From: Phoronis australis
Taxonomy: Eukaryota; Animalia; Phoronida
Direction of reading: 5' to 3'
Assembly (NCBI GenBank): GCA_002633005.1
Contig: NMRA01000366.1
Coordinates: 340,015 to 391,695, forward strand
Length of the DNA stretch: 51,681 nt
A program made the translations under genes and the position numbers. Below, one piece after another: positions 20,001-51,154 of this stretch. How positions within the stretch are numbered: position 1 is the first letter of the stretch; the number at the start of each line of letters is the position of its first letter. Below the pieces are notes generated by a model. It saw only the letters and a list, made by a program, of their open reading frames with translations. It had not been told where the DNA came from and ran no database searches.

Positions 20001-23000
20001 GCAGATATGGCTGTGGTGAAACTTGGTTTTTAACGTCACAATATGGTTTATAGCAGAGATTAGTTATTTTAGGATGGACATTCTTTTGGAGCACTGAAAC
20101 TGATGAGAAACTGTTAAAAAATCCAGTCAGATTTTCTCTCTTAACAGTGAAGTTTCTCCACATGATAATCGAATATGCAGGTATACAGTTGCACTGACTC
20201 CTAATAACTGAAGCCGATTCACACAGAAGACGCAAAGAAAGTGCACCAGCCAGATACCACCGAATGCACGGAGTCAGGAAAGAGATGATCAACCACCAAG
20301 CTGGACCATCTGGCACTGGAGTACTTCTCAGCCATCCTTAGGAGGACCAGATGTCATGACGCCATCCGTCTGACACAGCCATCATCTAGAGGTCTAGATA
20401 TCATTACATCATTTGTATGGAGCTGGAAGCCTCCTCAGCCATCCTCTTGCAGAAATACACCTGCTAGGCTTCAAAGCCCTACTAGACAGCTGGACGACTG
20501 AGCCAGAAAATAAAGTCGCACAGCTCAAAGTTATATCGCCCATATTGCACCAGTCACAACAGACAAACTCGCCGTCCTAAATTCAAGACCACTAGAAAGA
20601 TGGCAAAATTAATCATGTCTGGAATTCTGGAAGTCATGTGGTACGATACAAGCAACATGTTTCAATATGTCTTTTACACTCTTGACAAGTCACCAGTCAG
20701 AAACGCCACTGAATTTGGTACCGCGATTAAAAAAACAACATAACATTCGTGTCAACAGGTTGAGGTAAACCACCCCTGGAGGAACGGTACAAACTTAGCA
20801 GCTGCGTAGATCTGTGATCGCTATCAATTGTTGCACTCACAGCGAACTAAGCATTAAACCCATGATAAAGCATCACAAAACAGCAATGCTTCTATTAACT
20901 TCCTAAATAAAAGAGTATTGCTCTGTTAAGCGTCCCGGTGTTCATTTGACAATGAACTTAGATCCTCTGTGCTTAACCCTTATCCTGCGCTAGGCGAGGT
21001 CAGCCCACATGCCAATTATCCTATTAAAATGCGTTGGGTGTACTCAATCGACTATAATAAGTTACAGCTGGGCTGCGCTAGGAGAGTGCACTCATCCCAG
21101 GACACTTGTGATTTTCATTCAGAAATTGTAAGAGCCCTGGAATGTTGTTTAGATATGTGACCATGAGCATTCCATACTTCACAACTTCCTCTACTGTTCT
21201 CCAATTTAAACCATATGGCTGTGATTACTAGTTTGGGAGATATTGGCAGGTTTATGTAAGTGTAGACACATAGTTTCATTAGATGGCTGGAGCCATACGG
21301 GAGAGGATGACAGTGGATTAGTTTACTTTCACCAAGGCTATGATAAAGACTTATATATGGTGAAATTCTCCATTAAATTCTGCACAAGTTTTGTATTGAC
21401 TTATTTTCTGGTAATTTAACATTTCCCCTTCAAATTTCCAATTTAAAATTGTTAGGTCATTTGTCTAGGTGACTTCCACAACAGCTTAGTGTAAAGCAGT
21501 AGTGGTGACCTACATAGCTCAGCACACAGGGAAAGTAGTCTGAATAGAGGCTCAGCAGGATAAGGGTTAAAGATGTTGCCTGGGCCCGATGTTCCCTGAG
21601 CGCGATATTCTCATGTATCAAGTTTCTCTGGCTTGATGATCTTTAGGCCCTTAGCCAGCTATTGCAACTAAATGGGTAGACGCGAAATTATGGATAGTGA
21701 ACACTTTAGCTTCTCCATAGTCAGGTTACAAACCATGCTCACGTAAACGCCTACCCTGTACTTTTGAAAATAAATTTCGGAAAATGTGCCCATGCAATGC
21801 TAGACTAATCGCCTATCCTTAACTTTCCCAAATGTTCACAAAAGCACCTACAGCTCAGGCTAGAGCCCACCTGTAATTTTCTTAACCAAAATGATTTTCA
21901 AAACTGTAAAGTCTCTGATGATGGAGCCCTTCTCAGCCATACTCTAGATGACCAAATGTCATCATATCCTCCGTTCAGGTGCTGGAGCACTACTCCACCA
22001 ACCTCTAGACACACAGATGTCATTACATCATTCATCTGGGGCTGGAGCCCTTCTCAGGCATCCTCTAGATAACCACATTTCATTACATCATCCATCTAGG
22101 TGCTGGAGCCCTCCTCAGGCATCCTCTAGATATCCACATTTCATTACATCATCCGTCTAGGTGCTGGAGCCCTCCTCAGCTATCATATAGACATCCAGAT
22201 GTCACGAAGTCAACAAAATATTCCCAACGGTACTGAATGTAAATTTCCTGCATTTCTTCATTTTATTACGGGAATAGATGAAACTAGAAATGGTTGCCAT
22301 TGTTCAACATTCATTAAAAGTATGTGGCGTGACTTACCTTTAGCCAGATGGCCAGGTGTTATACCACTGACCTTTGTCCTGTAATCGGTCACTTTCTCAG
22401 TAGGCTTCACATACTTATCATAGAGACACTGACCATACTGATTGACCACAGAGACTCGTGCCAGCATGTTGTCACGCCCCTCATAACCGGTACCCACCAT
22501 TTCACAGTCTATAGCCACATGCTTGGTTGGACTATAACAAGAGTACAATAGGACAAGAGTACAAGTTGGAGTACAAAAGTACAATAGTACATTGTTTTAG
22601 GTGTTAAAAGTGTTTCTGCTACTGTTTCAGCCATTTGTCTTCCACGCATTCAGTTAAGATCAACTGGAAGTTAAAATAATCTAATAAATAAATCCCTTTG
22701 TGGCTTAAACGACTTTCTCTATTTGAATCACTAACATCCAACAAAAAGTTGTAATAATCCCATCTTTGGTTAAAAAACCAAATGAACTTTGATTTAGAAC
22801 TCTTGCTGCTTAGAAAGAAATAACACACTTGACACTACTCTAGGAACATCAAATGACCCCTCAGAACAAGGCAACTTGATGAAACTGTTCTCACAAATAA
22901 CACACTCACACAAATAACACACTTTCACACATAACACACTCTCACACATAACACACTCTCACACATAACACACTCTCACACATAACACACTCTCACACAC

Positions 23001-34744: not shown

Positions 34745-34982
34745 TCATGGTTTGGGAATGGCACACGGGGGCTGATTTAGGCAATATTCCTTCTCGGTAT
34801 CTCCACCACCTTTGCAAAATGGTATTTTCTTGGGACATTGTCGCCTGCGAAATCGCGTTCCCAGGCTTCCACATGTTTTGGAGCACATTGTCCATTCCGT
34901 CCAAAACGTGTAATCTCGAATTTCGTCACAGTCCATTGGAACGTGGCATCTAGCGGTCTGATAAGGTAAACCCGTGCAGTGT
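34745..34982 (-). CDS. TSP1 gene last exon (end of TSR1, TSR2)
   Basis: ctccag|A; WTEWTMCSKTCG, RxRxRxC, TGA stop. Confidence 0.9.
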
Positions 34983-37273
34983 CTGGAGTGGAAATAAAAT
35001 ACTGAATCGAGTTCACTGCTTGAGTAGAAAATGTATACGGTATTGATATCGGCTAAGAAAGTATCCAACTTGTTTAAAAGCATCAGTTAACTGTGTCTTA
35101 AGCAGTGGCGGATCCAAGATTTTCGGAGGGGGGAGGGGGGACAGGACAGAGTATTTGCCCGGATTTTGCCCTTCAGAAATTCTCACCCCCGAACTGCCAA
35201 ATGGAATCTGGGATAATTTTAGGGGGCGCATGGCCCCCTTGGCCCCCCTCTAAATCCGCCACTGCTAATATACTCGAATATGAAGTGTTCGGTTTCTGAC
35301 GAGGATGTCAGACGTAACTAGATGCATATCTAGGGTGGGTCATTCGGGTGAAAGTGTTGACTGTACATACGGGCCCGTAATTATTAATCCGATATCCAAT
35401 GGGAAATATGTTAGTAGGTCACTTGAGCTCTGATGTAGTGTACGCTGGTAATTTGACATTCATATGCTTCGTTCATAATTTTACGCTCGAAATTTTGCGT
35501 GCGTAATTTTACAGTGCACGCTCATAATTTTACGCTCGTCCTTTGCGCATGTTAGTGTTCAGAAGGTAAAATGTCAGGTGCAAAGCATACAAGTTCAAAA
35601 GATTGAAAACATCGAGGACTGAGCGAGTTTTACTGCTAGCTGCCCTGGACATCTCAGACATTTGAAAGTAGTGCGTTTTAATACCACATATTGGGATGCT
35701 AAAAATGTTATCTAGCAATGCTTTGATTTCATTTGTTAAAATTGTCGTACTTTTCAATATTTAAGCGAAGTTGCATTCGCTTTACAAAATGCCGCGTGAG
35801 AACTGTTGAGGTGTGCAGTGCAGAACGAAAGGACAGTCTTTAAAATTTGATTACATCCGAATTGGTAGTTTTGCTACAAGTTTCTTAGCTAAGGACATCC
35901 TATAGATAGGGAGACAGAAGGAAAAACGAACCTCACTCATGGGCGTGCATGGTCCTTTAACGTTATCAGTTAAGGACGGTGCAACGTTTAAGTCTAGGCT
36001 CTCTCAGTTGAAAAGGACAAAACAGTTAAAATGGTCACAGTTTAGCACAGCCAAGCTATAATTATACATGAAATTGTAAACTTAATAGTACGACATTTAC
36101 GGCAAAACTGGGTAAGGTAAGACAAAGTAAGCCTTTTTTAGCCTTTTGCTTACGGGGGAGGGGGNGGGGGGGTGTAATCATCGCTTTAGTATCAACAAGT
36201 GACGTCCACTAGGAAACTATAGTTACAGCAAGCACGGGTACCTCAGTTACCTTGTTTCTGTGCATTCTCTGGACCTGTACTGTGTCGAAATGCCACCACA
36301 CGACAACGAACAATGGCTCCATGGAGACCAGCTCCTCCAATGTGGCTTACCCAGTATACTGGCAATTAACATGTAATGTGTCTTTCGACGAGGCTTCGTT
36401 GCTGGACGGCTCACAATTAAGGTGAGGAATAACAAAAGCAACCACAACACCACGCCTGGAACAGATAGGCTTGATTATACAGATTTCCTGTAGGGTGCCA
36501 TGATACAGTTAAAGGGGCAATAAGCATAGCTCCTGCAAAAAAAAACAACTTTCATTGTTCAAAAGTATTTATCGGCTTCAGATGAACTGTCATTTGTTAC
36601 TGCTTCGTATCAGGCTCGTGAAGTTTACTACGTCGGGTAATTAGGTTGAGCCGTCATCAGACTCAGGCTAGTGAATAGCGGTCAGGGACACTACATCTAG
36701 TGTTTTATTCGTTAACCAATTATATTGAATTAAACCAAGCAAAAGTCTGAGAATAGGATGACGTCACTTTAGAAGTGTAGTTTTAACAACAGATCATGCT
36801 TTATGGCCGCTTGAATAAAAAGTTTGTAACTCGAAGGTTGGAGAAGGAGTCTTTGACACGCATATACTACGGATTTACGGACTTGAATATGAAAAGAAAC
36901 AAAAAAACGATGTGTTATTTTCATGATTGCAGGTGCGGATGTTTTGTAGATTGGTAAAATGGGCAGCTTCCCTGCAGATAAAATTCAGGAACATGCTACT
37001 GCCAACCACTGACTAGAGAGCTATAGATATATAGGTTAGAGCTAGGTACTAGGCCCCCTATACGAGCGAGTAGTGTTCTTTAGTGAATCCTATGCGGCTG
37101 CGGCCACTTAGTGAGGGGGTAATGAGTGAAGCACTTTTGGGTGGAGAATGCAGTACCTCGGACAATAGCTTGTAATCATAGTCAATAATGGAGAGTCTGT
37201 CGAATTCAAACGGTTTTACAAGTATTAATCGTGTACATCGTGTTTTGGTAAATAACTCACTTCGAAAATACAT
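34745..37273 (-). CDS. Small secreted protein with two thrombospondin type-1 repeats; complement join(37273-37261,36455-36251,34982-34745), 151 aa
   Basis: Micro coding exon ATG TAT TTT CGA A|gtgagt splices in phase to give the signal peptide MYFRSVVLWLLLLFLTLIVS. TSR1 WRSWSPWSHCSLSCGG..QYRSREC. TSR2 WTEWTMCSKTCG..TRFRRRQC..C..EYC..C*. AATAAA lies about 85 nt after the stop. Confidence 0.85.
35103..35264. mobile_element. CAGTGGCGGAT-TIR MITE in the TSP1 gene intron
   Basis: CAGTGGCGGATCCA / TAAATCCGCCACTG terminal inverted repeats. Confidence 0.75.
36251..36455 (-). CDS. TSP1 gene exon (signal peptide plus TSR1)
   Basis: ttccag|GC ... ACAAG|gtaac; WxxWxxWxxCSxSCG motif. Confidence 0.9.
37261..37273 (-). 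CDS. TSP1 gene first coding micro-exon
   Basis: Nearby ATG plus strong phase-1 donor (GAA|GTGAGT) that completes the signal peptide. Confidence 0.7.
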
Positions 37274-39463
37274 TTTACTCCAATTATGGCCTTAATTTAA
37301 GTTGAGTAATTGACAGACGGTACTGATTGCAATCCGTTGTCAAGCACTGTAGTGATTCATGACGTCATGCTGACAAAACTAAGTATCGCTCTCATGGGCT
37401 CATTGTTAAAAAATAATTTTCTTTCATAAAAAATGCTCTTCAAGCAGCCAAAAATCTATTCAATTTCAAGAGCAAAGTCACAATGACGACCGAGTATCGT
37501 GGAGTACTATTTTATGCGGTATTAAACTCACGCTTGTTGTCAAAAAAATTCATTTAGGCCACTCAAAGTAATGAAACTAGTGTCAACATTTTCCATAGTG
37601 AAATTGGAACTAACTTCTGAGCTTCGACAGATTTTAGTGTCACGTGGTGACTTGCAAATGATGAGATTGGTTTGAAGAATTAACAAACTATCACTAGGTC
37701 TTTCCTAGCCCATTGATGATTCTGAATGAATAAAGGACAAGATAAAATCAATTTTATAACGATAAATGGCGTAAATTAAACTTTGTTTTGACTATCACGA
37801 GTATAATGTCAACACAATTGTGCTGTAGAAGAGATCGAGTCATTCAACCCGTTAAAAAGTGTTGTTTTGTCAGTCTTTTAACATTGTATGCAATTAAAAT
37901 CTTTATTGCAAAAATTTGAGGTGAACACACAACCTGCAGGACATGTCAATATACGCTCAGTTGAAAATACCAGGGTAAACAACTTTCGTAACGGCTTTAT
38001 ACCACAGCTAAAGACCGATGTGAATTCATTCGAGAAAACTAGGAAACGAAAAATAATTATAAAAAAACATGTACAAGGAGTTCACCGGATTCATTTATTG
38101 CAATTTTTTTTCAACACGAGTGTATTCACACTTGCACGAATTCGCCATTATGCCTGATAATGAGGTGTTGTCATCTTCAAACTACAATGCTTCTGCGCGT
38201 TTTCACGTTTGTGATGTTAAACTGAAGCTAACATAATTAAGTCATTAATTTGTGTCTTAAACGACAATGCCCAATACAACAATCATTTTATTTTTACAGT
38301 GCCACCAAAGTGTGCAAGCATTCAGAATAGAGTCCGAATACTCCATTACTGTAGCGTTTTTAACACGACAAGACACAGGGACCTTCTGCCTTGAGTTTTC
38401 ATTGTTAATTAGGATTTTAATTAACACGATTTTTGGCGTAACAGTAAATTACACAGTGTTATAGGCCTACTATACCCAGTCAAACCAATGTGTTAATTAG
38501 ATATCTACATATACGCTGAGGTTGGCCAATGTTACAAATAAACACAGAAAATCAGGAACCCTAGTAACTGGGCATAGAACCACAGGTCTCTAGATTGCCG
38601 GTCTAGTGCTCTGGTGCCATAGTCCTCATCTCGTGCGCCAGGCGAAACGTCGCTCATGGGATGTATGTGACACTGCATGGGCTAACAGTTTGCAAATAGT
38701 AATTGCACAGATGTCGAGTCCTCGGCTCATGGAGTAGCTCATAGTTTGAAGTCAGGGAAATACGGCGTCCCCGTCCCATAGCACAACAACCCATTGACAT
38801 CAGTGCTGCCGGCTTCATACTTATAAGTTCCTGGCAGTGCGTGCCTCGGCGACCCGGCAACGAAACTGAGTCGGTGCCACGCCCGGCGGTACCCCCACCG
38901 TTGCCAGACGTGTGTCACAAGGCTAAATTTGACGGAATCAGCGCTATCTAATCGTCACATTCATTCGCAGCTGCATGCAACTCCCACTATCCAGCGCTGC
39001 GAGCGAAGCCACTATTTCAGTACCGTGCTGGTGAGAACTGCCGCCCTTTTCTCAAGGACGGTCCTCATTGTGGTGTGAGCCTCAGTGAGAGTCAAGTCTA
39101 AGTTCCCACTCTTGAACTTTCAAAGACTCGTACGCAAAACAGGGGTTATGACCGCATTTATCTCATCCCGCAACCGAGTTACCTTCAATCTGTGACCGGA
39201 CGGCCGCGCGGCAATCAAGTCCATGAAAGCGCCACTAGATGACTAGAGCCCTCGACTGGGAAGACTTCATTCGCTCGGGATCTCCATCTGGGCTAAACGC
39301 GGGTGCACTGACGCTTTCTCGTCGGCACTGACATGAAAATCTTGTTAGCGTAGTAACAGACCTTCTCGGGACCAGTGCACCTTCGGACTAGGGCACATTC
39401 GGACGTAGTGAGCTGCTTTTCTTTGCCCGGCACATGAGCTGCCTCGCGGACGCAGCAGAGATG

Positions 39464-39470
39464 CTTTATA
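39464..39470 (-). promoter_or_regulatory. Possible TATA box (TATAAAG) for a minus-strand transcript, possibly the TSP1 gene
   Basis: Sits at the edge of a CpG-rich segment (~38600-39500); minus-strand donor AAG|GTAACT at 39183. Confidence 0.35.
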
Positions 39471-39700
39471 CGCCCTCCGCCAGAGGTCTCTTCCTTTTTG
39501 AAAAATCATTTGGTGTCCACGTCGTGTGCATTATTCTCACAACAGTTTTGGTTAACGGTGATACTAGTTAGTCTGTAAGCATATAATAATTATTGGATGT
39601 GTTCCTGTCTAAGTTGAACTCCTAATTCTAACTGCTGAATCTGCATAATGGGTGTTTCCTTTGGTTTTAGCTCGCAACAAGAGAGCATCGATTTAGTCAA

Positions 39701-39813: not shown

Positions 39814-39886
39814 ATGCCTCGTTCATTTCTGAGAAAAGTTCAAAATGGAAAAAGCCAAGAGACCAACTCGAGGAATGAAAACAATG
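39814..39886 (+). CDS. ZNF gene first coding exon (SNAG-like motif)
   Basis: ATG CCT CGT TCA TTT CTG AGA AAA ... AAT G|gtgagt. Confidence 0.8.
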
Positions 39887-42800
39887 GTGAGTCAAGCTGG
39901 TGCATTTGTTCTCGTAGTCTCGATGTTCTTTTGTTATGAAACTGCCGCAGCGACACCAAACTAGTGAGGGTATCCCATGGACTTACCCATGTTATTCATT
40001 GCTGGCCGCTACAGATCCCGGTGGTTGTTTCTCTTGTATTTCATTTGTTTAATCTCGGTAACTTGGTCAAGCAAGAAAACTTAGCCATGGATACTCCATG
40101 ACATTTTTCATTTTTATTTCAGGAAATCATACTTTTTGCTTTGTACAGACATGCACTTCACGAGAGGCACTTTATAGACTCATGCCATACAGTTGTGGGG
40201 GGGGGGGACTTTTGATGCAGTTGTAAAAACCACCCATTTCTCTTTTAAAGAGTGAACTTACATTCGCACATGTATATATCTATGCCAAGTTAGTCTATGT
40301 TGTCTTGTCCAAGTATTTGTCATGACAAATTTGCATTGCATTACTTTTATTATTGTTTTACTTTATATGTTTTAACTGATAGCATAACATTCATCATTAT
40401 AAGTTATATTATTTAAGCTATAACTGAATGTAAGTGGTTTTTGGTTTTAGAAATTATGTTCAAGATTGTTACTTTTAAAATGGTGCATGTTGAACTGCAA
40501 TGATGCAGATGAGTCTAAAGAAGCACAAATCTACTTTAAATAATCTAAAATATAAATATATATACAAAATCTATGGTGGGATATGGGAGGAAGGGTTTGC
40601 TGAGGCAGTCATCAGCTCATTGAAAATGAATGCTTTGATATTTTTGAAATTTTTTATAGCCAGCTTTGTTTATATAAAAAACAAAAAATGTCACTTGTTC
40701 TTATGGCAGATGTACATATGAAAAAACCATGTGCCAACTAGCTTTAGTTTGTTTTATCATCACCAGAGAAATGCAAAGGATACCATGCGCTAACTAGTTT
40801 GTTTAGTCACCACCAGAGGTTTACAAAGGATATAGACCATGTGGTAATTAGCATTAGCTTGTTTAGTCACCACCAGAAATGTACAGAGGATATATGGCAC
40901 GCGTCAACTTACGTTAGTTTGTTAAGTTACCACCAGAGGTGTGCGGAAGATATAGACCATGTGCCAACTAGCGTTAGTTTATTTAATCACCACCAGAGAT
41001 GTATAGACCATGTGCCAACTAGTATTATTGTTTATTTACCGCCAGAGGTTCTGGTGTACATTCAGATGATATAGATAGATGATTGAACCACAATTTTGTG
41101 CATTTTTTCCAATTTTATTTGTTCAGTTTTTCTGCAATATTGTGTCATTGTGTTGAATTTTGACTTTTTTCTTTAAGATTACTTGACAGAAACTCCAGCG
41201 CAGATTGGGGAAAGGTTGGATCAGGTGAGAATATCTCTCGTCTTAATTTTTAGTCCTAACCTAATAACTGGTAAACCACTACAGAGTGCAATGTAGACAT
41301 TCTCTACTCTATATGGATACGTACTGTTCTGCAAATACTCAGGTGATGTCTTGTGAACACAGTTTTTGAAATAATATGTAGGGTGGCACATTTTTAAACG
41401 CAGTCAGGAAGGATAAAATCATTTCGTACCATTCCCCTGGATTGTTAAAGCCAAACAATTTCTAACATCACCATCTGATCTAGTATCATGTTTGATTAAA
41501 CTTGACAAACAAGCCTATTGTGTTTTACACAAGGCTTGGAATTTTCCGCGGAAACGCGGATTTCCGCTTTTTTCAAATGTTCTGTCCGCGAATTTTATTA
41601 TATTTCCGCATAAAAAAAATTGGATTTGATAAAATCTCCGTGGCAAATTTCTTTCGTACTGCGGTATTGCCGACGACTTTCACCTCGAAAAGCGGAAGTT
41701 GCTCTTTATGTTTCGGAGGAACGTAAATTGTCAACATTGCCGGGGCATCTGGGATAGCGTGGTGGATTCTTCAATGGCGTCTCGTGTGATTGTAAACAGC
41801 GGTGACAAATACTACGGCTCTGCAGCCAAAAATGTGTGGAAGTGGGAGTGCGGGAGCGGACGGACGAGCTAAAAAGACGCAGATGCACGCTTCTGGAGGT
41901 GGTACAGTTTTTTTTTTAGTTCTCCCAGTCTACATCGCCTATTTCAAGGCTGGGTGTGCGCATGTTTTGGGCCGTAAAAATTTCCGCTGTGCTAGTAACA
42001 TGGGCGGCACACCATAGGGGGCTGGGGGGCTATAGCCCCCCACTTTTTTCAGCGCTAGGACACACATGGTCTACAGGCCGTGTACCACAGGGGGGCTGAG
42101 GGGGCTTTAGCTCCCCACTTTTTTCAGTGCTGCACCGCCCATGAGTAATCGAGTCATAGCTTACAGTGTCAGCAGGTGAAAGTCTAATAATATTTCTTTG
42201 AAACTCAACCGTTTTTCTTCATCAGAATTTTTTTGGTGATAGTATTCCACACAGAACTCATCTTCATCACGACATTTGCTCAATGCCGTTTGAAAATAGT
42301 ATTTTTAAGTATGGGTTAAAGCATCTGGCGTTCTATTTACAACATATTTTCTGGATTACGAACACAGACAATGAGAGATCTGGACTATGTAAACATTGGT
42401 TTGCCAACTTTCTCCCCTTGCTATCGCTGTCAAACTGATAATGACACTTCTGTATCCGGACTAGCCAATCAGTGATGTCATGATACTAACCCCACACCGC
42501 GGGGTGTGCTGTTTACTTTACTTTTTGTTGTGTCTTTTGCCATAAGTTCAATGAACTGCTGTGAGCTCAACAACTCAATGTGTTCTGAACACTCTTAACC
42601 CCAGCACCTGCATTTGAGTGATGGGCGTTTGCGAGTTTTCCCAAAATTACTCGAACTTGATGAACTGGTTTACACTTACACCATACCCACCCTCACCCTT
42701 AGCAGTGTATGCCCACCCTCACCCTTAGCAGTGTTTGCCCACCCTCACCCTTAGCAGTGTATGCCCACCCTCACCCTTAGCAGTGTTTGCCCACCCTCAC

Positions 42801-45800
42801 CTTCAGCAGTGTATGCCCACAGGCCAGGAAAGTGTGAAGAATTTAGGTCAGTATGTGATGTAAGATAGAAGTACTCACTTTCAAAAGACCAGCTGTGATT
42901 TCTGTGTGGCAGCATAGATTATAGTACTATAGTCTATGCTGGCAGCCATACTTTATAGTACTATAGTCTATGCTGGCAGCCATACTTTATAGTACTATAG
43001 TCTATGCTGGCAGCCATACTTTATAGTACTATAGTCTATGCTGGCAGCCATACTTTATAGTACTATAGTCTATGCTGGCAGCCATACTTTTGAAACTACT
43101 AACAGTTGTGTCCTTGACACACCGGATAATAATAAAAAAATAATTGCAGGCGGTCTGATACACGTTGCACCAGATGTGCGCAGGCCTCGCATGTGGGCCC
43201 ATTGCACTGATCACCTGGAAATATTTTTATGCTTTAATGGTTAAACTGAGCTGAGGAGCTAGAAACCTGGCTCAAGGGTTTAGCAGTGTGACCTGGTGGG
43301 ACTCGAACCCACGACCTCGAGTAAAGAAAGCGGGCACTTGTCAATCAGGCCACACTGCCTCCTCCACCGGATAATATGAGTGAGAACAGTTTGGCTTAGG
43401 CTACTTCCTACACGCTCTCTGATTTTTTGGGTATTGGGGTATTCATGGGTGCACCTAATTTGCTAAATTGTCCAAAAAGGTCTGCCTCAGTGAAACAAAA
43501 AAATCCGAGTAAACGAGACAAAAGATCACAAAGTCCAGGAATTTGGCGCGGATGCACTATTGGCAGGCCTGAACCTAGTGGCCCCGTTTGGTCTTCATCG
43601 ATTTTTCAGTAAAAGGTCCTCATATCGAAGAATATGAGAACCCCTATATTTTAGGCTGGGTGCGCGCATGGTATTTACCCTCAATACTACACTTGTGAGG
43701 CACTGAGCTGGCAGTTGTACACTGTGTCATTATGATATTAAAAGGAGTTTTCTTTTTGTAATTGTGTCGCGAGTAAAGTTTTATTGTTGTACACTGAGTA
43801 GCAGAGCAGACGTAGAAAGCTTCAAAAAGCGATTGAGTTGCAAGTAAGCATTCACCACCTGTCCGACTCAGCTCAGAAGTGCTTAAACGGCCCTACAATA
43901 GAATTTTTTCTACCTTCGCAATTGAAGAGTCATGTTTGTGTTACCGGGTTTGTGGAAATTGTCCGGGAACAACAGACATGAAAACGTATTCCACTTTCTA
44001 CCATTTTATTAACAAAAGCGTGAATGTGCAATCCTTGTTGTAGGATAATGGAGTCTATGTTCAAGATGGAGAAAGTACAAGATTGGTTGAAGAAATGATG
44101 ATAGAGGAGACCAAGGACAAGGACAAGGACAAGGTTGGAAGCAGTGGTGATTGTGCAGAAACAAGACCAGCTAATTCTGAGCAATTGGAAACACTGACTC
44201 ATCAGAATGAAAATGTAGATATTGCTTTGGTATGTATTGTATTTACTGTCTTGTTGACCTGTTGTTACCTTAAAGATGTCTTCTGTTAACTGCCAACGAA
44301 GTCATCGGTTTAAAAAAGTAGCGTAAAATATGGATTTCCTATCATGTCTTCGTCCAGCAAGTGAGTTGGGAGTCTGCTCTAGACTAGTGTGTGAAAATAA
44401 GTTAGACTGAATTGAACTTTGTGAAATATTGCTTGTGGTCATCGAGGTTGTCATGACAAATGAACAATTGAAGCTGCACCGTGAAAGCTCTGACAAATAA
44501 ATAATTTTCTGTGGTGATCATAGATTATAAAACTTGTGTAGGGATAACCTTTGCTTGTTGCTGCATCTATTTAGAACCCGTAAACTGAGTGCCTATGTGA
44601 AGCATTCAACTCCAACGAAACAGATTGATCAACTTGGAGAACTTATGGGCAAGACTGTCATCACTTTGCGATGGGTTTGTTTTCAGGAGAGTGGGGAGTG
44701 TGTCCAAGATGAAGAAATGCCAAGTCAAGTAAAAGATTGTTTTCAGGAGAGTGGGGACTGTGTCCAAAGTGAAGAAATGTTCAGTCAATTAAAAGATGAA
44801 GGCACAGGAGCAGATGGGAAAGATGATGTCACAGAGAGTGTCAATGAAGGTGATGAAGAGATACCACCTGATTCTGAGGACCCAGAGGTATCAATTATTC
44901 AGTTCACACCAGAAATAATCAGACAATTCCCTGTCATAACAGCTGACTGGAAGTGTAATTTCCCATCATGGCAGCTACTATATGCTTAACTCCCTGTGAG
45001 AGTGGCTGGAGGGATGGATGTGTGGGGTGTAGTGGTGGGGCAAACTGAGTGAGAATGGCTGGAGGGATGGATGTTGGGGTGTAGTGATGGGGGAAACAGA
45101 GTTTTGTACAAAGGCATGTTTTGCACGTTAGCATAAAGTAATCAAATTGCATGAAGTTGAGTTTGTTATTGAATTTCAGGACTAAACTTGAATATTTGCA
45201 TACCAAAATATAAAAGTGAAATTGGATTCTAAACAAATGATCGCATACAGAATACGAGGCTTGAAATTTTCCGTGAAAATGCGGATTTCTGCTTTTTTCA
45301 AATGTTCTGTCCGCGTATTTTATTATATTTCCACGTAAAAAAAATCGGATTTGATATAAAATTTCCACTTCAAATTTCTTACTGCGGCGTTGCCGACGAC
45401 TTTCACCTTGAAAAGCGGAAGTTGCTCTTTATGTTTCGGAGGAACGTAAATTGTCATCATTGCTGGGCACCTTGGATAGCGTGGTTTTCTTCAATGGGGT
45501 CTCGTGAGATTGTAAATCGCGGTGACAAATACTACGGCTCTGCAGCCAAAATTGTGTGGAGGTGGGAGTCGCGGACGAGCTAAAAAGACGCAGACGCACG
45601 CTTCTGGAGGTGGTACCGGTTTTTTTTTAGTCCTCCCGATTTTTGTCGGCAAACGGTCCACATCGACTATTTCAAGGCTGGGTGCGCGCATGTTTTGGGT
45701 CGTAAAAATTTCCCCTTTTATTCTCATTGGTCATTTCAAGCCCTGAGAATTGCAAAAATGAGCTGAGTTGAATTATAACCAGATCCTGAGGCCACCAGTA

Positions 45801-48800
45801 CCTTTGTGATTAAGCAGAAGATTTCTGCACAAAATATGATGACGTGGTCTAATCACAGAGATCCAGACATGCAGGACACAGAAATACAACTACTTGTGTG
45901 ATCTTATCCTGCACACGTAAACTCGTTCTTGGCTACATGTCTTCACAGTTTGCAGCTACAAAGGTCTTGTGTTGCATTACAGAATAGAAGGCTGGAAATA
46001 CTAAAGATGGTGGAGAAGATCGTCACCTATGTCAACAATAAACAGGTCATCTACTATAAGTGTCCTATCTGTGGCAAACTGTTCAAGCAGCACTACTCTT
46101 TCGGCAGGCATATAGTTGTACACACAGGTAAGAAAACACTGGGATAGGAGGAGGCTGCTGCAGCAAAATGGTGTTAGTTTGTAATGCATGTGTCATCACG
46201 AATTCATTGAGGTCTCACCAATCAGTGATCTAACAGTCAGGAGCAACCGTCTGTGCTTTGTCTACCTACAAAGATTGGCTTTGAACCTCACTGTGTTGTG
46301 TTACTGTATCATTTATCTTTTAGAGATGTCCTACAAATTTACTTACCATTTTACAGGCGAGAGACGATTCAAATGTGATGAGTGTGGCAAGTTATTCCGT
46401 CAGTCCAGCACCCTCTGTAGGCACAGAGTTGTCCATAATGAAGAACGTAAATACAAGTGTCCCCAGTGCCCAGCTACATTTCGGTAAGTACTCAACAGTG
46501 CTTAGTAAAATCACATCAAGTCGTCTTATGTGCCTACATGCACATACAGTGTAGGTGGATATAAACCAACATCATCTGTGTCATTGTCTCTCTTCTTTCT
46601 GGAGTCCACAGCTGTATTTCCTTGACCTCTTGCAAGATTTTCAATAAATTTGGCAGATGTGTTCCTGTGAAGCTGGCGATGGATGGAGACAGAAGATGAC
46701 TTTTGGAAGGATCTTACTACCACTGCCCACAGGTGGCACTTTAATGTTGTTCACGTTTGCTCTGTACCTACCTAGTTACTTGACAGAGCTGTATGAAATT
46801 TTCCAGTTAGGCTTCTGTTGTCATGATGGCCACGCCTACCCAATACTGTACCACTGGCTGGATTTTCAAAAGAAACACAAACTACAAACTACTTATAAAT
46901 GTTATGTAAATTGCCATGATTATGGACATATCATGTTTATGCACCCACGTATATAGATGACGATGAATTATTTCGGACCGATCCGATTACTACTACTATA
47001 TCCCCTAGTGGCAGTTTTACTTTTTTTGCTGTTGCCTCTATATCTTCGGAGTTCATTTTCATGAAATTTGGGTTCTTTTAAGGAGACAGCGATGGCTTTC
47101 CATTTTCCGATGGCTTTTTTCAAATTTGAGAGTCAGTTTTTTTGACTTCCGCTTTTCTATCTGCCAAAACGCTTGAAGGACCATTGCGAAAATTGGCTGG
47201 TGTGTTGCTGATGAGGAAACTACACCTGACATTTCACAGGAGTTAGAGTACTCTGGCACCCCCTACAGGGTGAAATTTGCCAGATGTTTTGCCTATGGAG
47301 CTGACAACAGATGTCAAAATTTCAGACCAATCCAACTCCTGGTTTGCCCCCTGGTGGCAACTTTAATTTTTTACGTTTTCCTGTTGATCTAGTTCGGAGT
47401 TCATTGATGGATTTCTGTGAGATATAACAACTAGAAGGATGTGACGAAACTTTTTCTTTGGACAAATCCGACATATTTTGAGCCACCTGCTGGCTATTTT
47501 TATTATTTCAAGTTGGTTTTTTTTTGCCTGCTTCTTTACTTGCCAAATTTTGTATTGGTCTGGCAACTGTGGCAGCCTGTAGTGGTGATTTGGGCACTCA
47601 TGGATGTAGCTCCTTAATCCCATGTAGGATCTTTGCGTAGTTTTGCAAGTGTTCTCCTGTAATGTTGACAATGGCTGTCCACTACATTTATATGCTTCTA
47701 AGTCCTGCTGTGCCCCTTGTGGCATTTTTTTGTTTACATTTGCCTCTGTGTCTTAGAACTCTTAAATGGTTTTTCTTGAAATTTGGGAAATTTTTATAAT
47801 AAAGATGACAGCACCTTTCCACTTTTATGATGGATTCAACGTTTTCTGTACCACCCAGTGGCAATATGTGTTATTGCTTTCAGTCATTTTGTGTTGTCTT
47901 GTTATCTGTGAAACCTCTCAAGGATTGTTATGAAAATTGGCAGACGTGTTCCCTCTCACAAGAACAGAACTGTCATGCCCAACTGCTGTTGTGCCCCTAG
48001 TGGCAATTTTTGCATCTGCGGCTGTATTTCCTAAACCCTCTGACTCTTCATGGCACTTTTTCACATTTGCCTCTGTTTCTGTGCAACCTTAACTGTCTTT
48101 TGGCAGTTGGCATCTCAACCAGCTGGCACTCTATTGTGTTGGCTGGCAATGGAATAATTTTAATTGGGTTTTGGCTTCAATTTTCTCCTGTACTCAGTCC
48201 ATCATGGGATTTTTATGAAGACGGCTGACGATGACTTTCCGACAACTTTAAATACTGTGGCGCCTCCTAGTGGCAGTTTTGTATGTTTTTGCGCCCATGG
48301 CTATATCTCCTAAACGTTCAACAGGATCTTTATTAAATTTGAGCAAATTAAGATGACAACAGACGACGACGACTTTCAAACAGAGTGGACTAGCGGTGTG
48401 CCCCCAAGTGGCAATTATAGTCTTTTACGTTTACCTCTGTATCTTCAAAGGTCCTGAATGGATTTCCATAAGGTTTGGCAGATGGGTGTCTGTTAGTGAG
48501 GTGACATTATCCATTTGCTTTCGGATTGATTCAAGGTATTTTGCACCACTTAGTGGCCAATTTTATTGTTTTTTTGGTGTCCGCTCCTCTGTCGACCAAA
48601 ACACTATAAGGATTATTGTGGAAATTGGCATGTATGTTCCTAGATTTGGAGTAGTGAACGCCTCCTAGTGGCTGTTTTTATTATATTTGAGTCTGCTTTT
48701 ATCGAAACCACTCTTAGATTATTTTTTGAGTGGCACTGACTACTGTGGTGTCTCCGTAGTGCATATTTTGCATTAGTGGCTGTGGGTTTTAGTGGCAATT

Positions 48801-51154
48801 TGGCTTAAGTGTGTATCTTTGGAGATTTTAGGTGGATTTTCATGAACTTTGGCAAATTGCTTTGAAAGACGACAGCGCCCCAGTTTTGGATGGGTTCAAT
48901 GTATTTTGTGCCATCTAATGGCCATTTTTAGGGTACTAAATACTATCCCTAGAAGCACACCATTTGCAGTGCAGTCTTGGGTGCATTTGAACGCTCCGTG
49001 GTGCTCTTGTATTACATTTGCCCGCTCAGTTACACCACATGTGACTCGTGACCTCCATTGACCTTGACCTATTTTTTGCAGACGCTCGTCTACTTTAGAC
49101 AATCACAAGAAGACACACAGTGAAACAAAAGCCTTCGTCTGCAAAGAATGTAACATGGGGTTTCATCAAAAAGGCAATTTGACGACGCACATGCGTACTC
49201 ACACAGGTAAGTCATCACTGTTCTGTCAAGCTTCCTAACTGAGTAAACTAAAATCAAAGTTTTTGTGGGAATAGTGGTCGGTAAAAACAGGCAAAATGAC
49301 TTTGTGCACAAACTTTAAAATCTGTGTATATGTAAACAACGACATATTGATTGACTTTTCGGTGTATTGTCTATAACTTATTCTTTAGACAAAAGCCAAA
49401 AGTTCACAGTAGTCCAGTTAGGTGATGCAGGTGGAGAAACAGACTGTACAGGTAAAGGTCAAAGTGCATTGTGAGGGAAGAGACCTGAAATCAAAACAGT
49501 TGGAGCTCAAATGAACCAATGTTTCTATTGAGATAGCACTCAGCATGTTTCAAGCGTATAATCATGTTGAGAGCTATCTCAATAGAAACATTGGTTCATT
49601 TGAGTTACAACTGTTTTGATTTCTGGTCTCTTCCCTCATAATGCATTTTGACCTGTACCTGTACAGTCTGTTTATTCACCTTTGTCACCAGATTGGACTA
49701 TTGTGAACTTTTGTCTTGAGAATGTTTTATAGACAATAAACCGAAATGTCGATCAATATGTCGTTGTTTACATATGCGCTGATTTTAAAGTTCGTACTCA
49801 TATTTTGGCCAAACACAAATGTGACTTTGGTGTATGTTTTCACCATCAAGGTGTCTTGTGTCTAGTTATAAAAGCAGAAAACTGGCTGTCAACAATTTAT
49901 GAAAAAAGAGTTAGTCTTCAATGACGGGAAGTTTTGTCAGTTTATATTTAGCAGTTGTGTTTCAAAGCTAGACATTAGTAATGCGCAGCAATGTACTGAG
50001 GTATGCCACCAAATCAAGTGTACCAAACAGCTTCAGTCTGCAAGAATTGGTCAATGTTAAGCTGGACTTTTGCTCTTTCCTTAAAAAGGGTACTTGCATC
50101 TATCATCAGGCATGAAGTTTTTTAAGCCATCACAATGAACACACACAGCAGAGGACAAAAAAGATGATCAAAAATTTTCAAAACCCAATAATTTATACTC
50201 TACAAATACATGCCTGGATTGTGTATAAAAATGGAGTTTATTTCCGCTGTGACTTACTGTTTATCGATGAACATGCTCGCAAGCAATGCTTGACCTTGTA
50301 AATATCAAACACTGTTTACTGATTGTCTGTGTTTCCATTGTGCAGGAGAGAAGCCCTTCAAGTGTGACGACTGTTATAAATCATTTGGACAGAAGTCTAA
50401 TCTGACGAGTCATGTTGCGGCTGTACATAAGCTCTTGACATGTGACATGTGCCCGGAAACCTTTAAGCGGAAGAGGCCCCTGAATGCCCACAAAATGATC
50501 ATGCATCCCACAAGCAAACTGACCAAGAGTGACAAACTTAGAGAAAATGACAAAGTGTCATCAGCCAAGTCACAGGTACCCAAGTCAAGTTACAAGCCAG
50601 TTCCCTACAAGAAGCTGCAAGAGCTGCGAGAGAAATCGGCAGAAAATCCTCAAAAGAAAATGTACTTGCTGGTGAAGCAGGCAGGTGGAATGAAAATGAT
50701 GATCCCCATGGATATTGTGAAAGTGGTTATGATGGGTGGCAAGGGGAACTCTGACAATCCTATCCACCAAATACTTGACAGGAAGTCTGAAAATCCGAAC
50801 GAGGAGAGTAGTTCAGCAGCTGTTCCTTTCCCAGTGACACTAGAGAACGCTCAAGATGGAGGTCTTTCAGCCGTTGACTTCACTTCAGATGGTCCCAACA
50901 CAGTAGATAGTGCTGGCGTTTGCAAGTTGCCTGACGTAGTTGATGTTGAAACCGACACAGGGTCAAGCGAGGGTCAGCGTTCCACTGACATCCTCTCTTG
51001 TCAGCCTCGTATGACCATCCCTATTACAGAGGTTGTTGTGCCGGCTACAGTTGAAGATCATACTGAAGACAGTGAGACCAGCAGTATGTCAACATCTTGT
51101 GTTCCTTCTGTGTTATATAACCAGACTAACACACTGGAGTGTATACAACCTTAA
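39814..51154 (+). CDS. SNAG-motif six-finger C2H2 zinc-finger transcription factor (Gfi/Fezf-related); join(39814-39886,41178-41224,[43802-43843],44044-44229,44687-44887,45983-46127,46357-46483,49082-49206,50346-51154), ~570 aa (584 with the optional exon)
   Basis: Begins MPRSFLRK (SNAG consensus MPRSFLVK), then an acidic linker. Fingers: CPICGKLFKQHYSFGRH, CDECGKLFRQSSTLCRH, CPQCPATFRRSSTLDNH, CKECNMGFHQKGNLTTH, CDDCYKSFGQKSNLTSH, CDMCPETFKRKRPLNAH. All introns are GT-AG and in phase. Confidence 0.88.
40726..41048. repeat. Diverged 60-bp tandem repeat, 5-6 copies
   Basis: ACCATGTGCCAACTAGC.TTAGTTTGTTTAGTCACCACCAGAG units in 60-nt register. Confidence 0.85.
41178..41224 (+). CDS. ZNF gene coding exon 2
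   Basis: ttttttctttaag|AT ... CAG|gtgaga; bridges phase 1 to phase 0. Confidence 0.75.
41530..41987 (+). mobile_element. 3'-truncated copy of the 45255-45745 MITE
   Basis: Collinear and highly similar (e.g. GAAAAGCGGAAGTTGCTCTTTATGTTTCGG; GGTGACAAATACTACGGCTCTGCAGCC). Confidence 0.8.
41999..42143 (+). mobile_element. Dimeric CATG-ended MITE, copy 3
   Basis: Same two-unit structure; 5-bp TSD AGTAA/AGTAA. Confidence 0.85.
42686..42820. repeat. 26-bp minisatellite x5
   Basis: CCCACCCTCACCCTTAGCAGTGT(A/T)TG. Confidence 0.9.
42908..43090. repeat. 34-bp palindromic minisatellite x~5
   Basis: GGCAGCCATACTTTATAGTACTATAGTCTATGCT, preceded by a near-perfect palindrome. Confidence 0.9.
43132..43364 (-). 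mobile_element. Full-length tRNA-derived SINE
   Basis: Minus strand GGAGGCAGTG-TGGCCTGATTGA (A box) ... GGTTCGAGTCCC (B box), T/TTA-rich tail; 12-bp TSD CACCGGATAATA at 43120-43131 and 43365-43376. Confidence 0.85.
43444..43670 (-). mobile_element. CATGCGCG(C/T)ACCCAG-family MITE
   Basis: CATG termini, 5-bp TSD GTATT/GTATT; right end homologous to the left end of 32051-33234. Confidence 0.75.
43802..43843 (+). CDS. Candidate 42-nt symmetric exon (QSRRRKLQKAIELQ)
   Basis: tag|cag NAGNAG acceptor, CAA|gtaagc donor, phase 0-0, no stop; acceptor pyrimidine tract is weak. Confidence 0.45.
44044..44229 (+). CDS. ZNF gene acidic exon
   Basis: ttgtag|GAT ... TTG|gtatgt, 62 codons. Confidence 0.8.
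44687..44887 (+). CDS. ZNF gene acidic exon with 60-bp duplication
   Basis: ttttcag|GAG ... GAG|gtatca; a second in-frame acceptor at 44747. Confidence 0.8.
45255..45745 (+). mobile_element. hAT-like MITE (TIR CAGGGCTTGAAAT)
   Basis: CGAGGCTTGAAAT / ATTTCAAGCCCTG; flanks AGAATA/AGAATT; second copy at 41530-41987. Confidence 0.75.
45983..46127 (+). CDS. ZNF gene exon, finger 1
   Basis: YKCPICGKLFKQHYSFGRHIVVHTG|gtaag. Confidence 0.92.
46357..46483 (+). CDS. ZNF gene exon, finger 2 and first half of finger 3
   Basis: ERRFKCDECGKLFRQSSTLCRHRVVH..YKCPQCPATFR|gtaagt. Confidence 0.93.
46526..49010 (+). mobile_element. Helentron/HINE-like non-autonomous element with a diverged ~120-140-bp internal tandem array
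   Basis: 5' TTATG..CCTAC..GTAGG short IR and ATGCACCC (46939); 3' GGGTGCAT plus small hairpin and TTGT (48979-49010). Repeated unit GCCCCTAGTGGC..T-rich..TATCT..ATGAAATTTGG. Boundaries are approximate. Confidence 0.55.
49082..49206 (+). CDS. ZNF gene exon, end of finger 3 and finger 4
   Basis: tttgcag|RSSTLDNHKKTHSETKAFVCKECNMGFHQKGNLTTHMRTHTG|gtaag. Confidence 0.93.
49311..49792. repeat. Long foldback palindrome (~240-bp arms, short loop near 49549-49561)
   Basis: e.g. CTCAAATGAACCAATGTTTCTATTGAGATAGC vs GCTATCTCAATAGAAACATTGGTTCATTTGAG; TATGTAAACAACGACATATTGAT vs ATCAATATGTCGTTGTTTACATA. Confidence 0.92.
50346..51154 (+). CDS. ZNF gene last exon, fingers 5-6 and acidic C-terminal tail
   Basis: tgcag|GA GAG AAG CCC TTC (GEKPF linker), continuous with ORF 50435-51154. 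Confidence 0.92.

What the first reader, a model, noticed from the sequence alone, without database searches (positions are those of the whole stretch)
39814..51154. SNAG-bearing six-finger factor that mixes Fezf-type and Gfi-type zinc fingers
Seen: the protein starts MPRSFLRK and has six C2H2 fingers. Known: the SNAG motif (MPRSFLVK) of Snail/Gfi1/Insm recruits LSD1 by mimicking the H3 tail, whereas Fezf proteins use an Eh1 motif. From my recollection of those sequences, fingers 1, 2 and 4 (HY..RH, FRQ.STLCRH, FHQKGN) match Fezf. Finger 3 (RSSTL) is shared by both families. Fingers 5-6 (Q.SNL..H, F.RK..L..H) and the SETK/TGEKP linkers look more like Gfi1. A long acidic tail after the fingers fits neither. 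Inference: a divergent, possibly undescribed SNAG-Fezf/Gfi paralog. The V-to-R change in SNAG may alter LSD1 binding.
Basis: partly seen in the sequence, partly recalled or inferred. Interest (0 to 1): 0.78.

Follow-up and report, generated by a model that had tools for sequence, protein, structure and literature searches.

The report
Divergent Fezf-like repressor keeping SNAG hook
This spliced, transcribed animal gene encodes a six-finger DNA-binding protein whose first four fingers match the brain-patterning factor Fezf and whose front end would hook the repressor enzyme LSD1; it is likely a drifted copy of a design already known from sea anemones and corals, not a Fezf-Gfi hybrid.

Summary
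The gene is real. RNA reads and a spliced contig give nine exons and a 570-aa protein: SNAG start, acidic spacer, six C2H2 fingers, 215-aa tail. The SNAG exon reaches the finger exons through a 47-nt exon needed for the frame. Fingers 1-4 are Fezf-type in register: helix score 107, best of 1558 background runs 59. The 'Gfi mix' is not supported where testable: finger 5 ties between Gfi-1, Fezf and the consensus finger, and TGEKP is also in cnidarian Fezf. Gfi finger 6 could not be obtained. SNAG plus Fezf fingers is published: cnidarian Fezf and the 'Fezf-like' genes of Nematostella and sea urchin (PMC2942887); 4 fetched cnidarian Fezf start with SNAG. Trees keep the gene outside canonical Fezf: weakly its sister in 3 of 4 trees, among generic fingers in 1. 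V7R spares the residues listed as needed for LSD1 binding. No orthologue was found; organism and presence of a canonical Fezf are untested. The scan earlier met a related eight-finger SNAG family elsewhere. Verdict: likely a divergent SNAG-type Fezf-like repressor, a new member of a known kind.

The parts
39536..39574 (+). Non-coding first exon (5' end approximate); splices to 39808 or 39812
   Evidence: joints 10/2/0 and 15/6/0 reads in X2/X3/X4, contig X1; 6 molecules end at 39536 in X2
39814..39886 (+). First coding exon, SNAG motif MPRSFLRK at the true N-terminus
   Evidence: no other letter listed in these codons
41178..41224 (+). 47-nt coding exon that restores the frame
   Evidence: (30/27/2 reads in, 17/28/4 out)
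44044..44229 (+). Acidic spacer exon
   Evidence: no Pfam family at E<=1
44687..44887 (+). Acidic spacer exon with an internal 20-aa duplication
45983..46127 (+). Finger 1 (Fezf-type HY helix, altered at -1 and 3)
   Evidence: (1 of 1900 background fingers as good)
46357..46483 (+). Finger 2 (closest to Fezf, 15 of 22) and first half of finger 3
   Evidence: 0 of 1900
49082..49206 (+). Helix of finger 3 and finger 4 (Fezf-type HQKGN)
   Evidence: (helices 0 and 9 of 1900)
50346..51154 (+). Last coding exon: fingers 5 and 6 (no Fezf-diagnostic residue kept, shortened linker, Pro at helix position 3 of finger 6) and a 215-aa tail without known relatives
   Evidence: tail searches

Best explanation
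The gene is spliced and transcribed and encodes a 570-aa six-finger protein that is likely a fast-evolving duplicate of the SNAG-type Fezf lineage and is predicted to act as a transcriptional repressor. Shown: exon structure, SNAG at the true N-terminus, Fezf-type fingers 1-4, no Eh1/Fezf-box-like motif. Inferred mechanism: after removal of Met1 the free Pro-Arg-Ser-Phe end would plug the histone-H3 pocket of LSD1 and bring the LSD1-CoREST-HDAC complex to DNA. Fingers 2-4 keep 10 of 12 base-contact residues (-1, 2, 3, 6) of Nematostella Fezf and would read a partly Fezf-like core. Fingers 1, 5 and 6 keep 2, 2 and 1 of 4, so the flanks of the site have likely changed; finger 6 may no longer read bases. 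The acidic spacer and the tail are likely disordered partner-binding or dose-tuning regions.
For: Transcript and frame. Best BLASTP hits of the finger array among 123 fetched proteins are the 7 Fezf proteins (49-50%, 171-176 bits; next 158 bits). Helix score of fingers 1-4 against Fezf 107, 0 of 1558 background runs as high, best 59; fingers 1-4 keep 7 of 17 Fezf-diagnostic residues against 0.87 expected. Sister to Fezf in 3 of 4 trees (64/39, 51/21, 30/4); nesting inside Eh1-type or SNAG-type canonical Fezf rejected (p-AU 0.004, 0.024). 4 of 7 fetched Fezf proteins start MPRSFLVK (the other 3 lack that N-terminus), and 6 of 73 Fezf loci have it upstream. PMC2942887 describes basal Fezf-like genes with SNAG and no Fezf box. 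P2, R3, S4, F5 and a basic residue 8 are kept; SNAI1 needs P2, R3, S4, F5, R8, K9 (PMC5066116); P1 and R2 of the mature peptide are crucial (PMC5453194).
Against: The largest tree (44 rows, LG+C20) puts the gene on a long branch among generic finger arrays, outside a Fezf + eight-finger-group clade supported 96/87. Support for sister-to-Fezf is never significant, and grouping with the eight-finger group is not rejected (p-AU 0.195). No full Gfi array was in any tree. Fingers 5-6 keep 0 of 9 Fezf-diagnostic residues and 116 of 1786 background runs match Fezf as well. Residue 9 is Val, not the Lys listed as needed in SNAI1 (it is Leu or Ser in the cnidarian Fezf). LSD1 binding, DNA site and repression were not tested.
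Confidence: 0.7

Rival explanations
1. A chimera: fingers 1-4 come from Fezf, and the last exon (fingers 5-6 plus tail) was taken from another zinc-finger gene through the phase-1 intron in the linker after finger 4. The donor could be Gfi or any generic finger gene.
For: The loss of Fezf likeness falls exactly at the last intron: 7 of 17 diagnostic residues kept before it, 0 of 9 after. That intron position is in none of the spliced Fezf loci mapped among 80 loci. Cnidarian Fezf tails are 10-12 aa, this one 215 aa. Finger 5 shares 3 of 4 base-contact residues with Gfi-1 against 2 of 4 with Fezf.
Against: Finger number stays six. Fingers 5-6 still score above the background mean against Fezf (13 against -0.5, sd 8.1). 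Finger 5 is as close to the consensus finger as to Gfi-1, and the same helix occurs in unrelated proteins (Q.SNL 47 of 1900; P0026, P0072). Fezf outscores Gfi-1 on the finger-5 query, 50.1 against 40.2 bits (three-finger sums). No donor for the exon was found.
Confidence: 0.13
2. A survivor of an old branch that split before or near the Fezf/Gfi divergence and so keeps ancestral traits of both; it would still repress through SNAG-LSD1.
For: It falls outside canonical Fezf in all 4 trees. Finger 3 ties between Gfi-1 and Fezf (8 of 14 each) and finger 5 ties too. The linker after finger 3 is unlike Fezf's; its type is rare (6 of 1900 linkers; the likeness to Gfi there is recalled, not shown by a call).
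Against: An ancient conserved branch should have relatives in other phyla; none turned up (each of limited reach). Finger 4 is Fezf-type, not Gfi-type (9 against 6 of 14). The branch is long, which points to fast change. The rare linker type also occurs in unrelated ZNF236, ZNF510 and BTB-finger proteins.
Confidence: 0.1
3. It is the organism's only Fezf, fast-evolving, having kept SNAG instead of gaining the Fezf box.
For: Fezf is its nearest family. Amphioxus Fezf still has a SNAG remnant in its DNA (PMC2942887). No genome was held to look for a canonical copy.
Against: The 18 distinct six-finger Fezf arrays in hand are 98-114 of 114 identical to Nematostella Fezf; this gene has 63 of 114. 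The paper gives over 75% identity as typical. Nesting inside canonical Fezf is rejected.
Confidence: 0.07

Closest known systems
SNAG-bearing canonical Fezf of cnidarians (Nematostella XP_032228911.2 = P0120; Exaiptasia P0116; Porites P0106; coral cluster P0108)
   Same: SNAG at the N-terminus, 170-195 aa spacer, six C2H2 fingers, fingers 1-4 alike in register, TGEKP before finger 5, four residues between the His pair of finger 6
   Different: Only 49-50% identical over the array; fingers 5-6 not Fezf-diagnostic; Arg at SNAG position 7; acidic unrelated spacer; 215-aa tail against 10-12 aa; three introns in the array against none in the SNAG-bearing Fezf loci
'Fezf-like' genes NveFezf3, NveFezf12, NveFezf30 and SpuFezli (PMC2942887)
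   Same: SNAG present, Fezf box absent, placed outside canonical Fezf
Bilaterian Fezf/Earmuff (Eh1-like Fezf box)
   Same: Fingers 1-4
   Different: Fezf box absent here, SNAG present; grouping with the four Eh1-type rows rejected (p-AU 0.004)
Gfi1/Gfi1b/Senseless/PAG-3
   Same: SNAG plus six fingers (PMC2889900); RSSTL helix in finger 3; Q.SNL helix in finger 5
   Different: Finger 4 is Fezf-type; Fezf outscores Gfi-1 fingers 3-5 in 3 of 3 queries; Gfi fingers 1, 2 and 6 not obtained
Eight-finger SNAG group
   Same: SNAG-like start in P0104; related to Fezf in the trees
   Different: Different helices in every finger; 45-53 of 114 identical to this gene against 61-64 for Fezf

Membership tests
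SNAG-domain zinc-finger repressors | SNAG motif at the extreme N-terminus with Pro2, Arg3, Ser4, Phe5 | tested here: met
   residues from PMC5066116
SNAG-domain zinc-finger repressors | Basic residues at 8 and 9 as in SNAI1 | tested here: inconclusive
   Lys8 kept, Val9 not basic; cnidarian Fezf also lack a basic residue 9
SNAG-domain zinc-finger repressors | Binds LSD1 and represses | not testable with these tools
   needs a binding or reporter assay
Canonical Fezf | Six C2H2 fingers | tested here: met
Canonical Fezf | Over 75% identity across the finger array (PMC2942887) | tested here: not met
   49-50%; 63 of 114 core positions against 98-114 for 18 Fezf arrays
Canonical Fezf | Inside the Fezf clade | tested here: not met
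   Fezf is a clade without it in 4 of 4 trees (support 96/96 to 100/99); nesting rejected p-AU 0.004 and 0.024; long-branch caveat
Canonical Fezf (bilaterian) | Fezf box (Eh1-like motif) near the N-terminus | tested here: not met
   no match to a recalled Eh1-like pattern that hits 33 of 73 Fezf loci
Fezf-like (SNAG, no Fezf box, basal to Fezf) | SNAG present and Fezf box absent | tested here: met
Fezf-like (SNAG, no Fezf box, basal to Fezf) | Fezf-type fingers, branching outside canonical Fezf | tested here: inconclusive
   helix evidence strong for fingers 1-4; sister to Fezf in 3 of 4 trees with weak support, among generic arrays in 1
Fezf-like (SNAG, no Fezf box, basal to Fezf) | Orthology to NveFezf3/12/30 or SpuFezli | not testable with these tools
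   sequences not held
Gfi/Senseless/PAG-3 | Fingers 3-5 closer to Gfi-1 than to Fezf | tested here: not met
   Gfi-1 11.2, 42.2, 40.2 bits against Fezf 17.1-19.5, 56.4-60.3, 48.7-50.1; finger 4 6 against 9 of 14
Gfi/Senseless/PAG-3 | Fingers 1, 2 and 6 of Gfi type; place in a tree with full Gfi arrays | not testable with these tools
   no full Gfi sequence came
Eight-finger SNAG group (MNM-2-like) | Seven to eight fingers with the group's own helices | tested here: not met
   six fingers, different helices; the tree alone does not reject the grouping (p-AU 0.195)

The most novel reading that the evidence does not exclude
In a bilaterian (earlier unchecked notes suggest a mollusc), a Fezf duplicate kept and transcribes the ancestral SNAG hook that studied bilaterian Fezf genes traded for the Fezf box, and swapped its last exon for foreign fingers 5-6 and a new tail: an unnamed LSD1-recruiting repressor with Fezf's DNA-reading core and a new flank specificity, a living model of the state before the co-repressor switch.
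Probability: 0.15. Interest if true: 0.55.

Novelty: new member of a known kind. Interest (0 to 1): 0.3.

Why it matters
Fezf fingers are among the most invariant in animals (98-114 of 114 core positions in 18 arrays here), so a transcribed copy at about 50% with changed base-contact residues is a case of a conserved regulator freed to change its target site. If the host is a protostome, it would widen the known range of SNAG-bearing Fezf-like genes beyond cnidarians and sea urchin and allow a test of the proposed SNAG-to-Fezf-box co-repressor switch. The domain design itself is already published, and nothing here points to a new mechanism.

Tried and rejected
Direct join of 39886 to 44044: out of frame, and reads show the 47-nt exon between. 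An upstream in-frame start that would bury SNAG: excluded for both spliced leaders. Gfi origin of finger 5 and TGEKP: not supported. Orthologue searches that found nothing: last exon against longer proteins, 2 generic hits among 1718 candidates; finger-2 exon, no candidate; tail by HMMER against 1.84 billion representatives, 2 hits, both bacterial repeat proteins matching one short stretch many times, judged chance; 91 aa of the tail in metagenome contigs, 0 of 171 stretches confirmed; finger 2-3 profile in metagenome contigs, best 80 of 260 loci kept, 73 canonical Fezf and none an orthologue; ESM Atlas, generic finger clusters for one query and no usable hit for the tail; earlier findings by place, sequence and relatives, none. 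Only the best 120 of 588 hits were listed, so an orthologue or Gfi among the rest would be missed. SNAG exon against PDB: no hit at E<=10, too short. Intron positions as a family marker: the intron after finger 1 is shared with 8 Fezf loci but lies in the common linker site; the one in finger 3 is one codon away from that of 6 loci; the third is unshared: uninformative. Selection from the 15 printed coding differences of contig X1: 0 of 3 change the protein inside the array, 7 of 12 outside, p = 0.2: inconclusive. Synteny with the human GFI1B region (recalled: REXO4 and ADAMTS13 nearby): the neighbours are a REXO4-like exonuclease exon and TSP1 exons (148 of 168 frames scanned), but TSP1 alone does not identify ADAMTS13; dropped. 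No run holding the stretch was on record as RNA. A single-sequence fold of the last exon did not finish and is not used.
Full report
1. The observation. The window encodes a 570-aa protein on eight coding exons (39814-39886, 41178-41224, 44044-44229, 44687-44887, 45983-46127, 46357-46483, 49082-49206, 50346-51154), all introns GT-AG, one stop at the end. Reads of three RNA runs of one study (about a fifth of each run read) show five of the seven coding joints in the printed table, on the sense strand; a 2816-nt contig of a run from another study (RNA status a guess) covers all exons without introns, including the two joints not printed. The 47-nt second coding exon is needed for the frame. A non-coding exon ending at 39574 splices to 39808 or 39812, and both leaders hold an in-frame stop before the ATG, so MPRSFLRK is the true N-terminus. 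No other letter is listed in the SNAG codons, so Arg7 is not an assembly error.

2. What the fingers are. A profile search returned seven Fezf proteins among 120 listed hits, named for Nematostella and Exaiptasia, with coral members in their clusters. They are the best BLASTP matches of the array among 123 proteins: 49-50% identity, 171-176 bits, next 158. Finger by finger against Nematostella Fezf, the helices of fingers 1-4 are matched as well by 1, 0, 0 and 9 of 1900 background fingers, those of fingers 5 and 6 by 449 and 1151. Summed over fingers 1-4 the score is 107 against a best background of 59 in 1558 runs; for fingers 5-6, 116 of 1786 runs do as well. Residues invariant in 18 Fezf arrays and rare elsewhere: 7 of 17 kept in fingers 1-4 (0.87 expected), 0 of 9 in fingers 5-6. 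Base-contact residues (-1, 2, 3, 6) shared with Fezf are 2, 4, 3, 3, 2 and 1 of 4 (read).

3. The Gfi claim. Only Gfi-1 fingers 3-5 (PDB 2KMK) could be seen. Counted by eye from the conserved Phe: finger 3 ties (8 of 14 with each family), finger 4 favours Fezf (9 against 6 of 14), finger 5 ties (6 of 10 with Gfi-1, Fezf and the consensus finger 1MEY). Finger 5 does share one more base-contact residue with Gfi-1 than with Fezf, but that helix is the consensus one: Q.SNL is in 47 of 1900 background fingers and the identical helix is in unrelated KRAB-type proteins. With the same program, Fezf fingers 3-5 outscore Gfi-1 fingers 3-5 for 3 of 3 window queries; these are sums over three fingers. TGEKP stands before finger 5 in the cnidarian Fezf. 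The linker after finger 3 is unlike Fezf's and of a rare type (6 of 1900), also seen in unrelated proteins; its likeness to Gfi is recalled only. Gfi fingers 1, 2 and 6 were not obtained, so the finger-6 claim stays open.

4. Trees, for and against. No tree held a full Gfi array. With 44 rows under LG+C20 the gene is a long branch among generic arrays, outside a clade of Fezf and an eight-finger group supported 96/87: this is against my reading. With subsets under LG+G4 (7 of 18 Fezf, 5 of 5 eight-finger, 12 or 19 of 20 generic rows) it is sister to Fezf with support 64/39 (fingers 1-4), 51/21 and 30/4: not significant. Nesting within the Eh1-type or the SNAG-type Fezf rows is rejected (p-AU 0.004, 0.024); grouping with the eight-finger rows is not (0.195). 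The trees show that it is not canonical Fezf; the link to Fezf rests on the helix and diagnostic-site tests.

5. What is known. PMC2942887 (read: parts 1 and 3 of 5 of the text, passages, supplement list; figures not held) states that non-bilaterian Fezf carry SNAG, that studied bilaterians lost it for a Fezf box (amphioxus keeps an untranscribed remnant), and that 'Fezf-like' genes of Nematostella and sea urchin branch basally with SNAG and no Fezf box. The data agree: 4 of 7 fetched Fezf proteins start MPRSFLVK; of 73 Fezf loci 6 have SNAG upstream and 33 an Eh1-like motif in some frame, 1 both (many loci are cut short). The window protein has no Eh1-like motif (pattern recalled). PMC2889900 (passages) gives six fingers for both Fez and Gfi; PMC2688512 and PMC3342872 (passages) describe repeated loss of SNAG. 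Seven searches listed no paper on this gene; subscription journals, among them the two papers cited for the Fezf-like genes and SNAG evolution (seen only as references), are not held.

6. How it likely works. PMC5066116, PMC5453194 and PMC13316430 (passages) report that SNAG mimics the H3 tail in the LSD1 pocket, that P2, R3, S4, F5, R8 and K9 of SNAI1 are needed, and that a six-residue peptide still binds weakly. This protein keeps P2-F5 and Lys8. Position 7 is not on the list, and a SNAG-like start in Owenia has Cys there. No passage read (also PMC3715402 and bioRxiv 10.1101/410761) measures a change at position 7, so a shift in affinity is open. Inferred: fingers 2-4 bind a partly Fezf-like site, SNAG brings LSD1-CoREST-HDAC, targets are repressed; changes in fingers 1, 5 and 6 would give other targets than Fezf. 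The spacer and tail match no family and no relative.

7. An open point. Fingers 5-6 and the tail lie on one exon, behind an intron absent from the mapped Fezf loci, and Fezf likeness drops exactly there. Drift and exon swap both fit; no donor was found. The organism was not determined: no genome is held, and 'likely mollusc' comes from unchecked earlier notes. Whether a canonical Fezf and a Gfi exist beside it is untested.

8. Verdict. A real, expressed, divergent SNAG-type Fezf-like gene; new member of a known kind; interest 0.3.

Noticed in passing
window 38600-39445 (minus strand): Stranded reads show a transcript on the opposite strand that begins within about 100-150 bases of this gene's start: a head-to-head promoter. 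In run X4 it has depth 8-19 over most of this stretch while this gene has about 1-2 there.
   Followed up: no
window 34748-35086 and 36250-36474 (minus strand): Two exons with thrombospondin type-1 repeats; possibly the gene driven by the head-to-head promoter.
   Followed up: partly
window 22261-22596 (minus strand): RNase T-family exonuclease exon (PF00929), REXO4-like by recall.
   Followed up: partly
window 39461-39571: A 36-codon upstream frame lies in the longer leaders and ends just before the donor at 39574; two acceptors 4 nt apart (39808, 39812) are both used. Could tune translation.
   Followed up: partly
window 46600-48900: The intron that splits finger 3 is filled with degenerate repeats (up to 7 copies of a 33-nt unit, several CCTAGTGGC-like cores); reads from many other places of the genome pile on it.
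   Followed up: partly
window 41529-41988 and 45254-45716: Two copies, 85% alike, of a 460-nt dispersed repeat in different introns; a tRNA-like head typical of a SINE lies at 43288-43374 on the minus strand (relaxed ARAGORN).
   Followed up: no
window 44687-44806: A 60-nt internal duplication in the spacer exon gives two 20-aa copies and repeats the acceptor-like sequence inside the exon. Contig X1 also lacks 6 nt, in frame, in the exon before.
   Followed up: no
loci L001-L080: Canonical invertebrate Fezf genes in these loci carry introns inside the finger array at 11 different positions, in lineage-like sets, whereas PMC2942887 found introns there only in vertebrates and Ciona.
   Followed up: partly
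window 1329-1613 (minus strand): Weak THAP-domain match (E 3e-4, below the Pfam cut-off), perhaps a transposon remnant.
   Followed up: no
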